Positions 128-31,470 of a stretch of 36,350 nucleotides of DNA are shown piece by piece. Numbering within the stretch: the first letter of the stretch is position 1; every line of letters starts with the position of its first letter. The stretch lies in IMG/VR virus record IMGVR_UViG_3300031565_000168, positions 1 to 36,350 of that record; one strand, given 5' to 3'. Source of the DNA: a virus. The position numbers and the translations under genes are program-made. A model generated the notes under the pieces. That model saw only the letters and a list, made by a program, of their open reading frames with translations. It did not search any database and had not been told where the DNA came from.

Positions 128-2780
128 CCTCGACTGGCCTTTCGATTTCGATAAGGAGGATCTCGGCTTTGCCGGTTATGATACATGGTTGCAGATCAGA
201 GCGCCAAAAGAAGCGAGGCATACAATTGACCTCAAGTTTATCGAATCAGAAATGAAAGATTATCAAGCCGGTCCCGGGTCTAAGGTTGAGATCGTGACGA
301 TCCCGACGGAGACCGTGAGAGCGGGGCAGATCAGCGAGGCGGTATCTCTCGTTGACAAGCTCAAGGTTTATGCCGAGCTGTCCGGGGAAACTCTCAACGA
401 TAGCACGATCGAGAAAGCCGCCGAACTTGAAACGACCGCTCGCAAGTCTGGTGAGGTCGGCGAAGGATTGCATATCCGGGTACAGAAGCTCGTCCTCCGC
501 GGCGCGATCGGTATCAAGAAGGGGCTCGGTCTCGACGAAATCGAAATCGATCTCGATCAATACGAGCCGGGCCTTATTGCTCTTGTCGGTGTCAATGGTG
601 CCGGCAAAAGTACCCTCATCGAGAACATGCACCCGTACCCGCAGCTGCTCACGCGGACCGGAAAACTCCAGGATCATTTCTGCTTGAGAGATTCCTTCCG
701 GGATCTCTACTTCACTGACGAACGAACAGAGACCGAGTACCGGGCGTTTATGACGATCGACGGCCAGAACAAGAGCGGATCCTGCGAGTATTTTCTGAAC
801 CGGAAAGATAATGGAGAGTGGATCCCTGCATCAAAAGAATTCAACGGCCGGCTGGCTCCATACGCCGCTGAGATCCTGCGCCTGTTCGGCAGTATCGAGC
901 TCTACCTTCGGAGCGCGTTTGTTTCTCAGAAGCAGCCGAAGAATCTTCCCGATCTTTCAGATGCAACGCCTGGTGAGAAAAAAGCTCTATTCCGTGAGCT
1001 CGGGGGTCTTGATTATCTGGAAGTGTATTCAAAGGCAGCAAGCGAGACAGCAAAGGTGCTTGAAAGCGAGCTTACCGGAATCAAGGCGAAGCTTGAGCGA
1101 GAGGATGAGATCAAGGATGCTATAGGCAAAGCGAAAGGGGATCTGAACGCGAAAACCTCCTACCAGGAAGGGACCGAGGACAACCTGGCCCTGATCAAGA
1201 AGAAAGGCGAGGAACTGAAAGCCGATCACGATCGGCTGAAAAAGATCGTTGATAAGAACGAAAAGCTCCGAAGCAAGGGGGAAGATATCCGCTCGCTTCG
1301 TTTCGATGCCGAGGGATCGATACTCAGAATCAATAAATCAATAGACGAATACCGATCCGCCCTCGAGGGCAAGGAGCAGACTGAGAAGCTGATCAAGGAA
1401 TACGAGAATTTCAAAGCAGAGGAGGCGAAACTCAATGAGGAAAAGTCGAAACACGAAGGGGATCGCGCTCGCGGTCTTGCATGTTATAACGAGCTACGGG
1501 ACACCGTCGCAGGACAAGAGCGTGATCTGCGTGATAAAAAGAGCGAGGCGGAAAAGACAGCTCAGGCGGTCGAACGCGAGCGTGATCTCGTCCTGGCCGA
1601 TGCGAATAACCTCGAGAAGGATCTGAAATCTCTCAGAGAAGCACAGTGTCCTTATTTGGACAAAGAATGTCCGGCGAAAGACAATCCATCCTTCCAATTT
1701 GTGATATCCGATAGAGAGGAGACTCTCAAAGAATTGCAGGAAAAAGCCTTTGAACTCGATAAGGATCTCACCGAGAAGAACGAGGCGGTCAAGGCGATAC
1801 AGAAAGTGATCGACGATCTTGTCTGGCCAGAGGAACCGAAAATTGAGGAGTATGACGAGACCGAGCTCTCTATGGTGATCATGAAACTTGACAACTACGA
1901 TATTGTCACTCTCAAAGCAATGCTCGGTACATCTCAGGAAGCGGAGATCCGCATACAGGAAGGCGAGAAGCAGCTCAAGACTCTCGAGACCACGCTGAAT
2001 ACGCTCAATGAACGAGCAGCCGATCTGCTAAATCAGATCGATGAAGAGAGCGAGACTGACTTTACGGATGTCGGTGAGCAGCTCGAAGAGTGCCGGCAGC
2101 AGTACATCGAAACTGACAAGGAACTCACGCGGCTCAACACCGAAATCGAGGGTCTCAAGAAGCAGATCGCGGAGCGGGAAGCAGAGCTCGAGGATCTCAA
2201 GGCGCTCGACGAGGAGCGCAAGGCAAAAGAGATCGATCTCACTGAATGGCAGTATCTACAGCGAGCTTGCGGTCCGAACGGTATCCAGGCTCTTGAGCTC
2301 GACGCTATGGGGCCTGGGATCGCAGAGGTAGCAAACAGTATCCTTGAATCTGCTTATGGATCCCGGTTTCAGATCGAGTTCAGGACGACAAGGATCGGAG
2401 GATCCGGTTCCAAGACAAAGCAGATTGAGGACTTTCTGATCTGGATCCACGACTCGCAGTCCGGTGACGAGCAGCTCCTCGAGACACTGTCCGGAGGTGA
2501 GAGCGTGTGGGTCAAACGAGCGATCTATGATGCTTTTGGGATCATCCGAGCTCGCAAGACCGGGACGCAGTTCCTCACGGTCTACCAGGACGAGGCTGAC
2601 GGAGCGCTGGATCCTGAGGCGCGGACCGCGTATTTCCGTATGCTCGAGAAGGCCCACCAGGAAGCCGGTCGGTATCACAGCATTATCGTCACTCACTCGC
2701 TCGAGGCCCAGGAGATGATCGGGCAGAAGATAGAGATGACGGCTCTCAAGGAGGCGGTACGTGAGCCAGTTACAGCGTAA
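3..2780 (+). CDS. Rad50/SbcC-like SMC-type ATPase part of an ORF already open at the window start (it continues from 35491 through the circular junction)
   Basis: Walker A GVNGAGKST (about 588-614). Roughly 500 aa of heptad-rich coiled coil with a central CPYLDKECP. ABC signature LSGGES, then Walker B/D-loop VYQDEADGALD near the C-terminus. The frame has no stop between position 3 and the TTG at 189 used by the ORF track. Confidence 0.9.
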   Translation, partial: NWGELDQKGFNIVEFDDYVLEVGCEPVVQRIPFPHPPRKKIVLDWPFDFDKEDLGFAGYDTWLQIRAPKEARHTIDLKFIESEMKDYQAGPGSKVEIVTIPTETVRAGQISEAVSLVDKLKVYAELSGETLNDSTIEKAAELETTARKSGEVGEGLHIRVQKLVLRGAIGIKKGLGLDEIEIDLDQYEPGLIALVGVNGAGKSTLIENMHPYPQLLTRTGKLQDHFCLRDSFRDLYFTDERTETEYRAFMTIDGQNKSGSCEYFLNRKDNGEWIPASKEFNGRLAPYAAEILRLFGSIELYLRSAFVSQKQPKNLPDLSDATPGEKKALFRELGGLDYLEVYSKAASETAKVLESELTGIKAKLEREDEIKDAIGKAKGDLNAKTSYQEGTEDNLALIKKKGEELKADHDRLKKIVDKNEKLRSKGEDIRSLRFDAEGSILRINKSIDEYRSALEGKEQTEKLIKEYENFKAEEAKLNEEKSKHEGDRARGLACYNELRDTVAGQERDLRDKKSEAEKTAQAVERERDLVLADANNLEKDLKSLREAQCPYLDKECPAKDNPSFQFVISDREETLKELQEKAFELDKDLTEKNEAVKAIQKVIDDLVWPEEPKIEEYDETELSMVIMKLDNYDIVTLKAMLGTSQEAEIRIQEGEKQLKTLETTLNTLNERAADLLNQIDEESETDFTDVGEQLEECRQQYIETDKELTRLNTEIEGLKKQIAEREAELEDLKALDEERKAKEIDLTEWQYLQRACGPNGIQALELDAMGPGIAEVANSILESAYGSRFQIEFRTTRIGGSGSKTKQIEDFLIWIHDSQSGDEQLLETLSGGESVWVKRAIYDAFGIIRARKTGTQFLTVYQDEADGALDPEARTAYFRMLEKAHQEAGRYHSIIVTHSLEAQEMIGQKIEMTALKEAVREPVTA

Positions 2781-2849
2781 CACCCCGGCGTTGCCGGATA
2801 ACAATATTCCATTTTAGAAAGGAGTCTCTCTGTTCGTACAGGGTCATGA

Positions 2850-2877
2850 CCCCGGAAGTACCTCAAGACTTCCGGGG
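2850..2877 (+). terminator. Perfect 10-bp-stem hairpin downstream of the ATPase gene (no T-tract)
   Basis: ccccggaagt-acctcaag-acttccgggg. A smaller ccggc-gtt-gccgg hairpin lies at about 2784-2796. Confidence 0.35.
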
Positions 2878-2889
2878 ACTATTACAGGA

Positions 2890-2994
2890 GTCCACGGTGG
2901 CGGGAAAGGTGCCCCGTTAACCCGTGAGAGTGCCTACGGCTGATCCCCGTGACGACAAATGACTCCGCGCAGGTTCGAATCCTGCCCGTGGACA
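2890..2994 (+). ncRNA. tRNA-like element: canonical T-arm plus a 7-8 bp acceptor stem, but too long and lacking a clean anticodon arm
   Basis: T-arm gcagg-ttcgaat-cctgc (2969-2985). The 3' strand ccgtggac (2986-2993) pairs perfectly with gtccacgg (2890-2897). D-like stem cggg/cccg with a GG-containing loop. The only 7-nt-loop hairpin (2935-2951, loop ctgatcc) has a pyrimidine at position 37. Confidence 0.45.
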
Positions 2995-3008
2995 AGAGGG
3001 AGGGGAGT

Positions 3009-3173
3009 GTGGCAAAAAGCCTATCTATGAGCTTTAGCGTAAGCGAAGAAGAACGAAAAATAATCACAGAATACACGAAAAATAAGCACCTTCGCAAACC
3101 GAGCGAATTGATCAGGTTAGCCCTTTTTGGCTATATGCGTAAATATCCCCTAAAAATGAAGAAACAGGAATAA
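3009..3173 (+). CDS. Ribbon-helix-helix (CopG/Arc-like) DNA-binding protein
   Basis: MSFSVSEEERKIITEYTK..PSELIRLALFGYM fits a beta-strand/helix/helix pattern. A GTG at 3009 lies behind gggagggg; an ATG at 3027 is an alternative start. The 2949 start in the track would overlap the tRNA-like element. Confidence 0.65.
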   Translation: MAKSLSMSFSVSEEERKIITEYTKNKHLRKPSELIRLALFGYMRKYPLKMKKQE

Positions 3174-3175
3174 AT

Positions 3176-3529
3176 ATGAATGATGAGATTTGTTATTATT
3201 GTGGTATGCCAGGAAATCAAATTGATCACGTCATACCAAGAATAATATTAAAAAGTATAAATGAGACCAATGTTCATATACATGATAACCGAATCGAGAT
3301 AGTTCCTTGTTGCCATGAATGTAATGTTTTATTGGGGGCATCCTTTCAAAGTACACTTGCAGAAAGAAAACATTATTTGAAGGTAAGATTAAAATACAAA
3401 TATCGTAGTTTATTAAAAATACCCGAATGGATAAAAGCAGAAATAGATGTTTTAGGATATACCTTAAAGCAAGATTTATTGGATACTTTAAATAAAAAAG
3501 AATTGCTATTACTGCGCTTAAAATGGTGA
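3176..3529 (+). CDS. HNH endonuclease (free-standing, homing-type)
   Basis: CYYCG..NQIDHVIPR...CCHECNVLLG gives Cys pairs plus the DH...N...H pattern. The gene is markedly AT-rich relative to its flanks. Confidence 0.8.
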   Translation: MNDEICYYCGMPGNQIDHVIPRIILKSINETNVHIHDNRIEIVPCCHECNVLLGASFQSTLAERKHYLKVRLKYKYRSLLKIPEWIKAEIDVLGYTLKQDLLDTLNKKELLLLRLKW

Positions 3530-3716
3530 GTTTTCATAACTATACGAAATTCAAAGAAAAAGCCGTACAGCGTCACGCCCTAATAGCCTAGAGGCATTTT
3601 AATACGGGTCAGTGACCCAAAACGACATACTGGACCGGTCTGAGGTTCCTTCTCTGCAGGAACAGGTCGCCTGCGGGACCTCCTTTTCCTCGGGCCGGTC
3701 GATTTAAGGAGACGTA

Positions 3717-4370
3717 ATGGCGAGACCTCAAAAATATACTGCGGATTATTTCCCACATTTCGCTCATAACGGAAAGACGATGTTTATCATCGAGGAGAGG
3801 TTCGGAAACGATGGATACGCTTTTTGGTTCAAACTTTTGGAGCTTCTGTGCTCTACGGAGGGGCATTGTTACGATTGTGATTCCGTGGAGAATTGGGGGT
3901 TTCTGACGTCGAAAACTCACGTCAGCGAGGTTTCCGCCACGGAAATACTTTGTACTCTTTCCAAACTTGGAGCGATTGACAGCGATTTATGGGCCGAAAA
4001 AAAGATATGGTCGCAACATTTAGTTGACAATCTTGTGCCATTATACAGTAAAAGGACGTCGAAACCCCCCTGTAAGCCAGTTACCGGGGAGAAAACCGAG
4101 TTTCCGACGTCGGAAAACCACAAAGGAAGTAGAGGAAGTAGAGGAAGTATAGGAAGTAAAGTAAAGGAAGTAGAGGAAACTCAGGAAGACAAACCCCTTT
4201 CTTCTTCAAACCCTCAAAAACCCGAAACCCTGCAGGATATTGATAACGAGCATCTTCGTCTCAAGAGGCTTCATGCTGAAGCTGAATATTACAAGATACA
4301 CGACGAGAAGGCATACTTGAAACTATTGAAGCAGCACCCGGAGTTCGAGGAGGAGGTTCCGTGGTCATAG
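3717..4370 (+). CDS. Replisome organizer / replication initiation protein (DUF4373, Lin1244-like N-terminal domain)
   Basis: The N-terminus YTADYFPHFAHNGKTMFIIEERFGNDGYAFWFKLLELL matches my recollection of the DUF4373 signature. The gene contains iterons and palindromes. SD aaggag lies upstream. Confidence 0.7.
   Translation: MARPQKYTADYFPHFAHNGKTMFIIEERFGNDGYAFWFKLLELLCSTEGHCYDCDSVENWGFLTSKTHVSEVSATEILCTLSKLGAIDSDLWAEKKIWSQHLVDNLVPLYSKRTSKPPCKPVTGEKTEFPTSENHKGSRGSRGSIGSKVKEVEETQEDKPLSSSNPQKPETLQDIDNEHLRLKRLHAEAEYYKIHDEKAYLKLLKQHPEFEEEVPWS
4125..4192. repeat. Tandem 9-bp iterons GGAAGTAGA (about 7 units, degenerating) inside the replisome-organizer gene; candidate origin
   Basis: ggaagtaga ggaagtaga ggaagtata ggaagtaaa gtaaa ggaagtaga ggaaactca ggaagacaa, immediately after the perfect 16-bp palindrome tttccgacgtcggaaa (4101-4116). 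Confidence 0.6.
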
Positions 4371-6444: not shown

Positions 6445-6480
6445 AGATACTTCGATAAACGGGAGGTAGGGCGGGTAAAG

Positions 6481-6588
6481 GTGAAAGAGCAATATAACTT
6501 TTGGGAAGGAATGATAGCGGGTTTTGCTATCGGGATGCTTGTCGTTTCTATAATAGTTTTTGTAATAATAAATAATTTAATTAAGTAG
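6481..6588 (+). CDS. Possible 35-aa membrane micro-protein
   Basis: Hand translation gives VKEQYNFWEGMIAGFAIGMLVVSIIVFVIINNLIK. The start is uncertain (GTG 6481 or ATG 6511). Confidence 0.35.
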   Translation: MKEQYNFWEGMIAGFAIGMLVVSIIVFVIINNLIK

Positions 6589-6600
6589 GGAGGGGAACAA

Positions 6601-30145: not shown

Positions 30146-30367
30146 TCAAACATCTTTACTTTTTCCCGCATCACGATTAAAAATTTCTGAATATTTTACC
30201 CCTTCTTCTTGTATTATATTGGACGGAGCTTCAATAGTAACATCGGGTTCATCTATTATATTTATATCTTCTTTACAGATGATGAATCCCCGCAAGCAAG
30301 GAGGGTATATAATCGTATATTCCCCCATGCCATATTCTTCGAATTCAATGTCTATTGTGCCTTTCAT
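30146..30367 (-). CDS. Hypothetical AT-rich protein co-transcribed with the integrase
   Basis: ATGA-type overlap with the integrase stop. Confidence 0.55.
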   Translation of the reverse strand: MKGTIDIEFEEYGMGEYTIIYPPCLRGFIICKEDINIIDEPDVTIEAPSNIIQEEGVKYSEIFNRDAGKSKDV

Positions 30368-31470
30368 TTAATCCGCCTTTCTTTAAAAATCTGAATACCC
30401 TTCATTTCCTTCGCAATTCTATCGACAGTGTATCCGTATTCGCCATCGTAGTCAAGCGTCATTTTAAGGTCACTGTGCCCCATAATCCGCATGATATCGC
30501 GGGTCTTAAATCCGAGGTCGTGCATGTGAGTTGAGAAGAAATGTCGAAATGAATGAAGCGTATAGTGGGGGAGTTTGAGATTGATGAGAAGTGGGGATAA
30601 TACCGTATCCGTCCAGGAGCGAGCATTGAGAGGACGGCCCATTTTGCCAGGGAATAGCCATAGAGAATGTATACGCTCTGCGAGCCATATCTCGAGGTAT
30701 TCGGCGAGCTCCGGAAGTACCGGAACAACGCGAACGCTCTTGCGAGACTTCGGAGACGTGATCCGGCCGGCGTGATATTGCTGTATTATGTGAATGCGAT
30801 CGGATTCGACGTGTTCTTTCTGAAGACCGAATATCTCAGCACGGCGTAAACCGGCGAGAGCAGCCAGCCCGACGATAGCCCGTCCCTGGGGATCGAGGTT
30901 GCGGAGGACGATTTCAACATGCTCGATCGGTGGCTGCAATGTCCGCGTCGGGATCCGTTCCGGGAGTTCGACGGCAGCGGCCGGATTGACGTAGATCATC
31001 CGCTGTTTGACCGCGTAATCGAGAGCCTGCCGGATCTTCATTATTGCTTCCCGGACATAGTTCTGAGAATGATTGTCGAGGAGATTGTCGAGGAGATTGT
31101 CGATCATCTCCGGGGTGATCTTGTGGATAGGGAGATCGCAGTATTGATTGAGTGCCGACCGGACGAGGCTTGAAGTCGTCTCACAAGTCGACTGCTTGAT
31201 CTTTCCGAGTCGGACCCGGCGCTGGAGGTGCTCACAATATACGGTCACAAAATCGCTGATAGTATCTGTAGTCTTCGGAACGAGCTCACCTCGCTTGATC
31301 CTTTCAGTGAGTTTATCGTGGAGAGACCGTGCCTCGGCAACAGTCGGACAGATCGAGGTGGTGTGCAGCTTTTTCGTGCGGGGATTCCAGGCCGCGCCAT
31401 AATATCGCGTCACGGTTCCTCGCCTGGTTTTATAGATGCGCTTGTAGATTCCTTTCGGAAGTCGGGGCAA
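30364..31470 (-). CDS. int: Tyrosine recombinase (phage integrase)
   Basis: GLRRAEI (box I Arg), LHSFRHFF (H-x-x-R), GHSDLKMTLDY (catalytic Tyr region). Confidence 0.9.
   Translation of the reverse strand: MPRLPKGIYKRIYKTRRGTVTRYYGAAWNPRTKKLHTTSICPTVAEARSLHDKLTERIKRGELVPKTTDTISDFVTVYCEHLQRRVRLGKIKQSTCETTSSLVRSALNQYCDLPIHKITPEMIDNLLDNLLDNHSQNYVREAIMKIRQALDYAVKQRMIYVNPAAAVELPERIPTRTLQPPIEHVEIVLRNLDPQGRAIVGLAALAGLRRAEIFGLQKEHVESDRIHIIQQYHAGRITSPKSRKSVRVVPVLPELAEYLEIWLAERIHSLWLFPGKMGRPLNARSWTDTVLSPLLINLKLPHYTLHSFRHFFSTHMHDLGFKTRDIMRIMGHSDLKMTLDYDGEYGYTVDRIAKEMKGIQIFKERRIK

What the first reader, a model, noticed from the sequence alone, without database searches (positions are those of the whole stretch)
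2890..2994. Atypical 105-nt tRNA-like element with a canonical T-arm and an 8-bp acceptor helix but no normal anticodon arm
GCAGG-TTCGAAT-CCTGC is a textbook T-arm. It is followed directly by CCGTGGAC, which pairs perfectly with GTCCACGG 95 nt upstream, and a D-like stem with a GG loop follows the 5' strand.

About 71 nt lie between the acceptor 5' strand and the T-stem, against about 43 in a normal tRNA. The interior contains three CCGTG copies (2922, 2947, 2986) and two complementary pentamers, CACGG (2894-2898, inside the acceptor 5' strand) and TACGG (2935-2939). These allow mutually exclusive helices.

The 8/5 acceptor/T geometry and a D-stem that can extend to 6 bp resemble tRNA-Sec, but there is no UCA anticodon. 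The only 7-nt loop would give GAU with C37.

Possible identities are a degenerate or novel phage tRNA-like RNA, a Y-RNA or tRNA mimic, a tRNA-derived recombination site, or an operator array for the RHH gene that starts 15 nt downstream.
Basis: seen in the sequence. Interest (0 to 1): 0.6.

Follow-up and report, generated by a model that had tools for sequence, protein, structure and literature searches.

The report
Anticodon-less tRNA-shaped phage RNA gene
A temperate phage carries, in the middle of its early operon, a 105-base gene that keeps the top half of a tRNA but has no working anticodon arm. A sister phage has the same tRNA frame around a completely different middle, so this is most likely a non-decoding tRNA look-alike or a decaying one, not a new kind of tRNA.

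Summary
Window 2890-2994 (+) has a perfect 8-bp acceptor helix that abuts a textbook T-arm, and 71 nt lie between them without a usable anticodon arm.

- **Detectors:** ARAGORN and Rfam call nothing at their thresholds. The best match is tRNA-Sec at 24 bits against a cut-off of 47.
- **Sister phage:** Two metagenome contigs (L057, L069) are 84-94% identical to this phage and have the same gene order. They carry a 111-nt allele at the same locus.
- **What is shared:** The 109-nt upstream leader, the first 14 nt and the last 30 nt are 97-100% identical. The middle (61 vs 67 nt) cannot be aligned.
- **The sister allele:** It has a leucine-type D-arm and just reaches Rfam's tRNA cut-off (29.6 bits, cut-off 29).
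- **The middles:** Neither folds better than shuffled sequence. The window's D-like arm arises by chance in 12-20% of shuffles.
- **Ruled against:** Its 3' 22-mer is in no GTDB species genome and the integrase lies about 8.7 kb away. The repeats differ in the sister phage, and the phage encodes no Ro60.

Best reading: a tRNA-derived, non-decoding RNA whose intact acceptor/T helix probably lets RNase P and RNase Z cut it out of the operon transcript. A functionless relic is nearly as likely.

Earlier notes of this scan describe similar leucine-tRNA-shaped phage RNAs on other DNA.

The parts
2783..2889 (+). Conserved non-coding leader between the Mre11-Rad50 fusion gene (stop codon at 2778-2780) and the element
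   Evidence: It is 96.8% identical to L057 7470-7593. Only 6477-6599 and the terminal-repeat stretch 1-127 score higher; the large flanking genes are 84-94% identical. No sigma-70-like promoter was found in 2500-3700.
2850..2877 (+). Perfect 10-bp hairpin (CCCCGGAAGT / ACTTCCGGGG, 8-nt loop) that ends 12 nt before the element and has no U-tract
   Evidence: Inverted repeat I1. Fold -19.3 kcal/mol, z -2.4. Identical in L057.
2890..2897 (+). Acceptor 5' strand, GTCCACGG
   Evidence: Pairs perfectly with 2986-2993. Identical in L057 and L069.
2901..2916 (+). D-like arm: CGGG/CCCG stem with an 8-nt loop that contains GG
   Evidence: Seen in the MFE and cmscan alignments. Not significant: 12-20% of shuffled interiors give such an arm. 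Its 3' strand lies inside the swapped segment.
2904..2964 (+). Swapped interior: 61 nt with no alignable counterpart in the sister phage (67 nt there)
   Evidence: Alignment A3 and the blastn breakpoints. No other copy in the window or in the loci held at that point (L001-L081). Its 19-mer is absent from IMG/VR.
2935..2951 (+). Only hairpin with a 7-nt loop: UACGG-CUGAUCC-CCGUG (GAU, C37, C38), at the tip of an irregular 12-bp arm
   Evidence: MFE and centroid structures. The interior alone folds no better than shuffles (z 0.09).
2969..2985 (+). T-arm GCAGG-TTCGAAT-CCTGC
   Evidence: In L057 the stem is GUAGG/CCUGC, so C-G becomes U-G and the pair is kept.
2986..2994 (+). Acceptor 3' strand CCGTGGAC plus an unpaired A; no encoded CCA
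   Evidence: Identical in L057.
2995..3173 (+). Shine-Dalgarno stretch (GAGGGAGGGGAG) and the 54-aa RHH-like gene (GTG 3009), directly downstream
   Evidence: ORF list. Weak, sub-threshold DUF6290/NikA-like RHH matches. The same SD block follows the element in L057 but there it heads a DNA methyltransferase gene.

Best explanation
**What it is**
The element is a tRNA-derived gene that no longer reads codons. It is a mosaic allele of a tRNA-shaped gene that sits at the same place in a sister phage.

**Shown**
- The acceptor helix (8 bp) and the T-arm (5 bp) are intact. They are identical in both phages, bar one C/U change in the T-stem that keeps the pair.
- The middle 61-67 nt are unrelated between the two phages.
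- The middles are not detectably structured.
- Neither middle has a canonical anticodon arm.
- The sister allele has a leucine-type D-arm.

**Inferred**
- The element lies inside the long early operon. It has no promoter-like site nearby and no terminator of its own.
- The acceptor/T coaxial helix is the part that RNase P, RNase Z and the CCA-adding enzyme recognise.
- So the RNA is probably cut out of the polycistronic transcript as a species of about 105 nt.
- The cut would leave the upstream Mre11-Rad50 mRNA ending 12 nt after a strong hairpin.
- The downstream mRNA would then begin at the ribosome-binding site of the RHH/replication genes.
- The excised RNA would be a non-decoding stable tRNA look-alike, like T4 RNAC/RNAD or T5 RNA1. 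Any role of its own is unknown.
For: **tRNA frame**
- The frame is confirmed in the sequence.

**No decoding tRNA called**
- ARAGORN with default settings finds nothing, and Rfam gives nothing at gathering scores.
- Relaxed ARAGORN gives two mutually inconsistent intron-bearing solutions, Gly-CCC and His-GUG.

**Sister phage L057/L069**
- It shares gene order and 84-94% nucleotide identity with the window.
- The alignment shows a conserved leader and frame around a swapped interior.
- Its allele scores 29.6 bits on Rfam tRNA RF00005 (cut-off 29), and only through the acceptor, D and T arms.
- Its D-arm GCGGAAUUGGCAGACGC matches the class II leucine-type D-arm seen in L068, L043 and T5 RNA1.

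**Setting in the operon**
- No promoter-like site lies in 2500-3700, and no terminator lies between the element and the next gene.
- A conserved hairpin sits just upstream.

**Precedent**
- T4 and T5 records annotate tRNA-like or tRNA-cluster stable RNAs of unknown function.
- Two papers state that the roles of T4 RNAC and RNAD are unknown (PMC3014915, PMC9697503).
Against: - Only two independent alleles exist (L057 and L069 are identical here), so no covariation test is possible.
- The conserved frame lies in a stretch that is 97% identical anyway, so its identity does not prove selection.
- The window's D-like arm is no better than chance. The elbow that RNase P and other tRNA enzymes recognise may therefore be defective.
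- In a 232-nt context the MFE fold does not keep the acceptor helix.
- No expression data exist.
- None of 39 loci of more distant relatives of the neighbouring gene, plus one HNH-relative locus, carries the element. Nor do the five whole viral records searched. So it is not a conserved part of this phage group.
Confidence: 0.5

Rival explanations
1. It is a dead relic. A leucine-type tRNA-like gene, as in the sister phage, had its middle overwritten by a short recombination event. The acceptor and T-arm survive only because they lie outside the replaced tract. The RNA has no function.
For: - The interior is no more structured than shuffles, and the D-like arm is at chance level.
- Scores are below every detector threshold.
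- The region is a mosaic hot spot. The window has an HNH gene that L057 lacks, and L057 has a methyltransferase gene and a 1-kb insert that the window lacks.
- The element is absent from all more distant relatives examined.
Against: - A 61-for-67-nt replacement with both ends inside a 105-nt gene most simply needs a donor with the same tRNA frame. That implies other genes of this build exist.
- Even the better-formed sister allele lacks a canonical anticodon arm (C33, a G.A mismatch, a 38-nt variable region). So loss of decoding appears to predate the swap.
- The T-stem difference keeps its pair (C-G versus U-G).
Confidence: 0.3
2. It is a tRNA-frame carrier. The frame serves only as a processing and stability scaffold, and the variable middle is the active part, for example a decoy or a short trans-acting RNA. 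That would explain why sister phages carry different middles.
For: - Identical frame and unrelated interiors in near-identical phages.
- Earlier, unchecked notes of this scan describe many phage RNAs with a leucine-tRNA frame and diverse inserts.
- T5 RNA1 is a leucine-type-frame stable RNA with an insert.
Against: - Complementarity of either interior to the window, or to the part of the sister phage held as L057, is not above shuffled controls.
- The interiors have no significant fold.
- No second copy of either interior was found in IMG/VR.
Confidence: 0.12
3. It is a DNA-level site. Either it is an attachment site derived from a host tRNA 3' end, or the CCCGTG repeats are operators for the adjacent RHH protein.
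For: - The phage is temperate and has a tyrosine integrase.
- Three CCCGTG copies fall within 70 nt.
- The RHH gene starts 15 nt downstream.
Against: - Both acceptor strands and a D-like arm are present, not only a 3' part.
- The integrase is about 8.7 kb away around the circle.
- The 22-mer GGTTCGAATCCTGCCCGTGGAC is in none of the 185,579 GTDB species genomes.
- In L057 the 89%-identical RHH gene is separated from the element by a methyltransferase gene. The interior repeats differ there too (two CCCGTG copies, 20 nt apart).
- No promoter-like site is present for an operator to act on.
Confidence: 0.05
4. It is a working tRNA of unusual build that decodes through the CUGAUCC loop (GAU, isoleucine) or through another loop.
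For: - The loop has C32 and U33, and a 5-bp stem closes it.
- The unpaired A after the helix suits several synthetases (my knowledge of tRNA identity rules).
- Earlier, unchecked notes of this scan describe phage Ile tRNAs with an extra GAU hairpin.
Against: - Positions 37 and 38 are C and C.
- The arm is 12 bp long with a 3/10-nt internal loop, so the loop would sit far from where an anticodon lies.
- The acceptor/T helix has 13 bp, as in tRNA-Sec. From textbook knowledge, EF-Tu binds tRNA-Sec poorly.
- There is no UAU hairpin, so the element does not fit the two-arm Ile family.
- The sister allele has a different loop (CCUAGAA).
Confidence: 0.03

Closest known systems
Phage T5 RNA1 (NC_005859 30501-30644, annotated 'tRNA-like stable RNA with unknown functions')
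   Same: It is a phage RNA with a tRNA acceptor, a T-arm and a leucine-type D-arm (GCCGGAAUUGGUAGACGG). The sister allele L057 has almost the same D-arm. A non-tRNA insert fills the middle, and its function is unknown.
   Different: T5 RNA1 is 144 nt long and lies in a tRNA cluster of a lytic phage. It shows no sequence relationship to the element: model R1 gives no match at E<=10. The window's own allele has lost the leucine-type D-arm and has an 8-bp acceptor helix.
Phage T4 RNAC and RNAD (species 1 and 2 RNAs, 139 and 119 nt)
   Same: They are small stable phage RNAs made from the tRNA gene cluster, and RNAC ends in a canonical T-arm. Their roles are still unknown (PMC3014915, PMC9697503).
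   Different: They show no sequence similarity to the element. They sit inside a tRNA cluster, whereas this element stands alone between protein-coding genes. They are expressed late, whereas this element lies in the early/replication region.
Bacterial tRNA-Sec (Rfam RF01852)
   Same: It shares the 8-bp acceptor and 5-bp T-stem (a 13-bp branch), and it is the best Rfam match.
   Different: The score is 24.1 bits against a cut-off of 47. The element has no UCA anticodon, no long variable arm and no clean 6-bp D-stem, and the base after the helix is A rather than G.
Allo-tRNAs and the (8/4) tRNA-Ser and tRNA-His of bacteria and phages (Mukai et al., PMC5389517)
   Same: They have a lengthened acceptor stem and occur in phages. 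Some are thought to be regulatory or inactive.
   Different: They keep a 12-bp branch (8/4 or 9/3). They also have an anticodon and, as I recall, a normal anticodon arm; the passages I read do not state the latter. This element has an 8/5 branch and no such arm.
Plant mitochondrial t-elements (PMC1920247)
   Same: They are tRNA-like structures inside transcripts. By that paper's title, they contribute to forming mRNA 5' and 3' ends. This is the mechanism proposed here.
   Different: They belong to organelles, not phages, and they are unrelated in sequence. Processing of the present element has not been tested.

Membership tests
Canonical elongator tRNA (Rfam RF00005) | Detected by tRNA finders at their standard thresholds | tested here: not met
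   ARAGORN with default settings finds none. Rfam gathering scores give none. Only relaxed ARAGORN gives two conflicting intron-bearing solutions. The sister allele just passes, at 29.6 bits against a cut-off of 29.
Canonical elongator tRNA (Rfam RF00005) | 5-bp anticodon stem with a 7-nt loop, U33 and a purine at 37, at the standard distance from the D and T arms | tested here: not met
   The only 7-nt loop is CUGAUCC (C37), at the tip of a 12-bp irregular arm. cmscan skips 48 nt here.
Canonical elongator tRNA (Rfam RF00005) | Acceptor stem flush with a 5-bp T-stem and a TTCRANY loop | tested here: met
   The acceptor stem has 8 bp rather than 7.
tRNA-Sec (RF01852) | 8/5 acceptor/T branch | tested here: met
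tRNA-Sec (RF01852) | UCA anticodon, long variable arm, 6-bp D-stem with a 4-nt loop, score at or above the cut-off | tested here: not met
   The score is 24.1 bits against 47. The D-stem has two mismatches, and the anticodon and variable region are unaligned. There is no UCA in any 7-nt loop.
Allo-tRNA (8/4 or 9/3) | 12-bp acceptor/T branch | tested here: not met
   The branch is 8+5 = 13 bp. The definition is taken from PMC5389517.
tmRNA | tRNA-like ends enclosing a tag reading frame and pseudoknots | tested here: not met
   ARAGORN in tmRNA mode finds nothing and Rfam finds none. The element is only 105 nt long.
Y RNA / YrlA | Rfam match, and a Ro60 (TROVE) gene in the same genome | tested here: not met
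   Rfam gives no match. PF05731 is absent from the complete phage genome, and the control genomes were positive.
attP core derived from a host tRNA 3' end | Identity of the 3' part to a host tRNA gene, and position next to the integrase | tested here: not met
   The 22-mer is absent from GTDB species genomes. The integrase at 30364-31470 is about 8.7 kb away. The host itself is unknown, so absence from representative genomes is not absolute.
Phage tRNA-like stable RNAs (T4 RNAC/RNAD, T5 RNA1) | A tRNA frame (acceptor and T-arm) with a non-tRNA middle, encoded by a phage | tested here: met
   T5 RNA1 was read for comparison.
Phage tRNA-like stable RNAs (T4 RNAC/RNAD, T5 RNA1) | Accumulates as a discrete, processed, stable RNA in infected cells | not testable with these tools
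   No transcript data are available for this uncultured phage.
Leucine-tRNA-shaped non-decoding phage RNAs (earlier notes of this scan, unpublished) | Class II leucine-type D-arm (3-bp stem, AAUUGGYAGA-type loop) | tested here: inconclusive
   Met by the sister allele L057. Not met by the window's allele, whose D-arm 3' half lies in the swapped tract and is at chance level.

The most novel reading that the evidence does not exclude
The tRNA top half is a natural carrier scaffold, and the 61-67-nt middle is an exchangeable cargo. Sister phages have swapped cargo inside the same frame at the same locus. This would be a natural counterpart of the engineered 'tRNA scaffold', used by phages to make short, stable RNAs such as decoys or regulators that differ from strain to strain.
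Probability: 0.12. Interest if true: 0.7.

Novelty: new variant of a known kind. Interest (0 to 1): 0.4.

Why it matters
Phage tRNA look-alikes that cannot decode have been known since T4 and T5, and their function is still unknown. This locus adds a clean natural comparison. Two near-identical phages keep the same acceptor/T frame, the same leader hairpin and the same downstream ribosome-binding site, but carry unrelated middles.

That narrows the question. Either only the top half matters, as a processing signal or tRNA mimic. Or the middle is a strain-specific cargo. Or the gene is decaying. Each of these can be tested with simple RNA assays.

It is also a practical warning for annotation. 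Standard tRNA finders miss the window's element, and once introns are allowed they give mutually conflicting intron-bearing calls for both alleles.

Tried and rejected
**Searches for relatives that found nothing useful**
- Syntenic loci of the neighbouring Mre11-Rad50 gene: 9 in IMG/VR and 30 in GTDB genomes. None has the element by ARAGORN, blastn or covariance model R1.
- Five whole related viral records and three MAGs gave nothing or only ordinary tRNAs.
- RHH and HNH relatives gave no useful locus.
- Exact patterns in IMG/VR gave zero for the 25-mer 3' end, the window's interior 19-mer and the L057 interior 19-mer.
- A degenerate 3'-end pattern hit only an unrelated jumbo-phage tRNA-like stretch.
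- The leader-hairpin pattern hit only unrelated terminators.
- INPHARED phages and PLSDB plasmids matched only the T-arm.

**Readings tested and rejected**
- An intron-bearing tRNA: ARAGORN's Gly-CCC and His-GUG solutions appear only at lowered thresholds, conflict with each other and have poor stems.
- Antisense targets of either interior in the window or in L057 are not above shuffles. A first, heavier script timed out.
- A 25-nt tandem duplication (CCCGTGA...CCCGTGA): only 11 of 25 positions match, counted by eye.
- An inverted interior relative to L057: no, by eye.
- A two-anticodon-arm Ile tRNA (earlier scan notes): there is no UAU hairpin.
- A leader peptide through the hairpin: the ORF is not conserved in its start or end.

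Full report
**Setting**

The window is a complete phage genome and is the only contig of its assembly. It has a 127-bp terminal overlap. IMG/VR classes it as having direct terminal repeats and as 100% complete.

Nearly all long ORFs are on the + strand. A tyrosine integrase lies at 30364-31470 on the - strand.

The element lies between a large gene and a group of small early genes:
- Upstream is the Mre11-Rad50-type ATPase gene, whose ORF ends at 2780. Pfam gives only sub-threshold SMC_N and ABC P-loop matches for it.
- Downstream are a small RHH-like gene (GTG 3009), an HNH endonuclease (3176-3529) and a replication initiator (3717-4370).
- No sigma-70-like promoter was found in 2500-3700, and no terminator lies between the element and the RHH gene.
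- The element is therefore most likely transcribed as part of a long early transcript.

**The observation**

- GTCCACGG (2890-2897) pairs perfectly with CCGTGGAC (2986-2993).
- That 3' strand follows the T-arm GCAGG-TTCGAAT-CCTGC (2969-2985) without a gap.
- An unpaired A follows, and no CCA is encoded.

The exact T-loop block GGTTCGAATCC occurs once in 36 kb.

The rest is weaker:
- RNAfold gives a cloverleaf-like fold of -40.8 kcal/mol. It has a D-like hairpin and a 45-nt irregular arm tipped by UACGG-CUGAUCC-CCGUG. The z-score is only -1.9.
- The interior alone scores z 0.09.
- A D-like arm of this kind arises in 12-20% of shuffled interiors.
- In a 232-nt context the acceptor helix is not part of the MFE fold.

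Detectors do not call it:
- ARAGORN with default settings finds nothing.
- Rfam finds nothing at gathering scores.
- In sensitive mode the only relevant match is tRNA-Sec at 24.1 bits (E 0.013, cut-off 47), and 48 nt in the middle are skipped.
- Relaxed ARAGORN gives Gly-CCC with a 23-nt intron or His-GUG with a 10-nt intron. These two solutions contradict each other and have poor stems.

**Relatives**

More distant relatives lack the element:
- The 39 loci that encode relatives of the neighbouring ATPase gene, plus one HNH-relative locus, do not carry it. Their MAGs are labelled Spirochaetales, Treponema, Acidobacteriota, Planctomycetia, Clostridia and others.
- Five whole related viral records lack it too.
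- The 3' 22-mer is absent from all GTDB species genomes.

One gapped scan of JGI metagenomes returned 40 loci. The pattern was CACGGTGG, then 50-80 nt, then the T-loop, then CCGTG.
- Most hits are ordinary class II tRNAs (Ser, Leu), and some are intron-bearing tRNAs.
- Two hits, L057 and L069, carry the same 8-bp acceptor, the same T-loop and the same final A.

L057 and L069 are a sister phage of the window:
- Nucleotide identity is 84-94%, and the gene order is the same across 10-12 kb.
- L057 and L069 are identical to each other from L057 position 4600 onwards, so they count as one allele.

**The key comparison (breakpoints)**

| Segment | Window | Sister phage |
|---|---|---|
| Leader with the perfect 10-bp hairpin (2850-2877), plus element bases 1-14 | 2783-2903 | 96.8% identical |
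| Middle | 2904-2964 (61 nt) | 67 nt, not alignable |
| Last bases before the T-stem, the T-arm, the acceptor 3' strand and the SD block | from 2965 | identical except two C/U differences |

One of the two C/U differences turns a T-stem C-G pair into U-G, so the pair is kept.

The sister allele is 111 nt long:
- Its D-arm is GCGGAAUUGGCAGACGC, the class II leucine type. L068, L043 and phage T5 RNA1 have the same type.
- It reaches Rfam's tRNA cut-off (29.6 bits against 29), but only through its acceptor, D and T arms.
- Its best anticodon-like hairpin is GAGGG-CCUAGAA-UACUC. That gives UAG, a leucine anticodon, but with C at position 33 and a G.A mismatch in the stem.
- A 38-nt variable region follows (my reading).
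- Its interior also folds no better than shuffles (z -0.10).

Both alleles therefore lack a canonical anticodon arm. The window's allele has also lost the leucine-type D-arm.

**What it is not**

- **An att remnant.** Both acceptor strands are present. The integrase is about 8.7 kb away around the circle. No species genome holds the 3' end.
- **An RHH operator array.** In L057 a DNA methyltransferase gene (phrog_757) lies between the element and the 89%-identical RHH gene. The interior repeats differ as well. The local clustering of CCCGTG is real, with three of the window's 12 copies in 70 nt. One of those copies is simply the acceptor strand.
- **A Y RNA.** Rfam gives no match, and the phage has no Ro60 gene.
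- **A tmRNA**.
- **An antisense RNA against the window or the part of the sister phage held as L057**.

**How the swap probably arose (inference)**

The neighbourhood is a mosaic hot spot:
- The window has an HNH gene that L057 lacks.
- L057 has a methyltransferase gene flanked by a duplicated SD block.
- L057 also has a further insert of about 1 kb before the replication initiator gene.

A 61-for-67-nt replacement with both ends inside a 105-nt gene is most simply a conversion tract. It would have been resolved in the conserved tRNA frame. The donor would then have had the same kind of frame around a different middle.

**How it most likely works (inference)**

- From established knowledge, the acceptor/T coaxial helix is what RNase P, RNase Z and the CCA-adding enzyme recognise.
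- The element lies inside an operon and begins 12 nt after a strong, conserved hairpin that has no U-tract.
- It ends directly at the next gene's ribosome-binding site.
- Excision would leave the upstream mRNA with a hairpin-protected 3' end, and the downstream mRNA would begin at its SD.
- The excised RNA would be a non-decoding tRNA look-alike.

I put about 0.5 on this reading and about 0.3 on the element being a functionless relic. The remainder is spread over three readings: a cargo-carrier, a DNA-level site and an odd decoding tRNA.

**Comparison with what is known**

- **Closest known:** the phage tRNA-like or tRNA-cluster stable RNAs, T5 RNA1 and T4 RNAC/RNAD. T5 RNA1 has a leucine-type frame. 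The roles of RNAC and RNAD are still unknown (PMC3014915, PMC9697503).
- **Sequence relation:** none. Model R1 does not match them.
- **tRNA-Sec and allo-tRNAs (PMC5389517):** the likeness is limited to the lengthened acceptor stem.
- **Earlier notes of this scan:** they describe many 'non-decoding leucine-tRNA-shaped phage RNAs' on other genomes. I treated these as leads.
- **What I checked of those notes:** the T5 and T4 records, and the leucine-type D-arm of the sister allele. I could not test the family claim itself.

**Verdict**

- The element is real and tRNA-derived, and it almost certainly does not decode.
- It is a small and partly degenerate variant of a known but unexplained kind.
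- Its most informative feature is the sharp swap of the middle between sister phages.
- Evidence that it has a function is thin, so I score interest as moderate.

No further alleles could be collected.

Noticed in passing
window 2850-2877: A perfect 10-bp GC-rich hairpin with no U-tract ends 12 nt before the element. The 107-nt leader around it (2783-2889) is 97% identical to the sister phage; the large flanking genes are 84-94% identical.
   Followed up: partly
window 3176-3529; L057 7704-8246 and 8569-9624: There are mosaic insertions around the element. The window's HNH gene is absent from L057. L057 has a DNA methyltransferase (phrog_757) flanked by a duplicated GAGGGAGGGGA ribosome-binding block. 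L057 also has a 251-aa ORF and a 99-aa HNH-like ORF before the replication initiator gene.
   Followed up: partly
L043 4399-4505 and 4528-4768: A 107-nt tRNA-like gene has a leucine-type D-arm, the same T-arm as here and no normal anticodon arm. It lies about 25 nt upstream of a permuted (two-piece) tmRNA (Rfam RF04321, 51.8 bits).
   Followed up: no
L068 946-1035 (-) and L073: A leucine-type tRNA has a palindromic anticodon arm (GUAUG-UUAA-CAUAC). ARAGORN calls it 'tRNA-???' with a two-base anticodon.
   Followed up: no
L041 9950-10036 (-): In the tRNA array of a 479-kb jumbo phage, an 87-nt stretch ends in a canonical T-arm plus CCGTGGAC. ARAGORN does not call it, although it neighbouring tRNAs. 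A second uncalled T-arm with CCA lies just upstream of it.
   Followed up: no
L066, L070, L072: These are tRNA-Thr(GGU)-like genes. L066 has a 14-nt insert after position 37/38. L070 and L072 are about 18 nt longer, with extra inserted sequence. By eye these look like archaeal-type introns.
   Followed up: no
window 6477-6599: This stretch is 98% identical to the sister phage, the highest of the aligned stretches apart from the terminal-repeat stretch 1-127. It appears to encode a hydrophobic peptide of about 39 aa starting at GTG 6481.
   Followed up: no
L057 7224-7460: A 78-aa cysteine-rich ORF lies between the Mre11-Rad50 gene and the conserved leader in the sister phage. It is absent from the window.
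   Followed up: no
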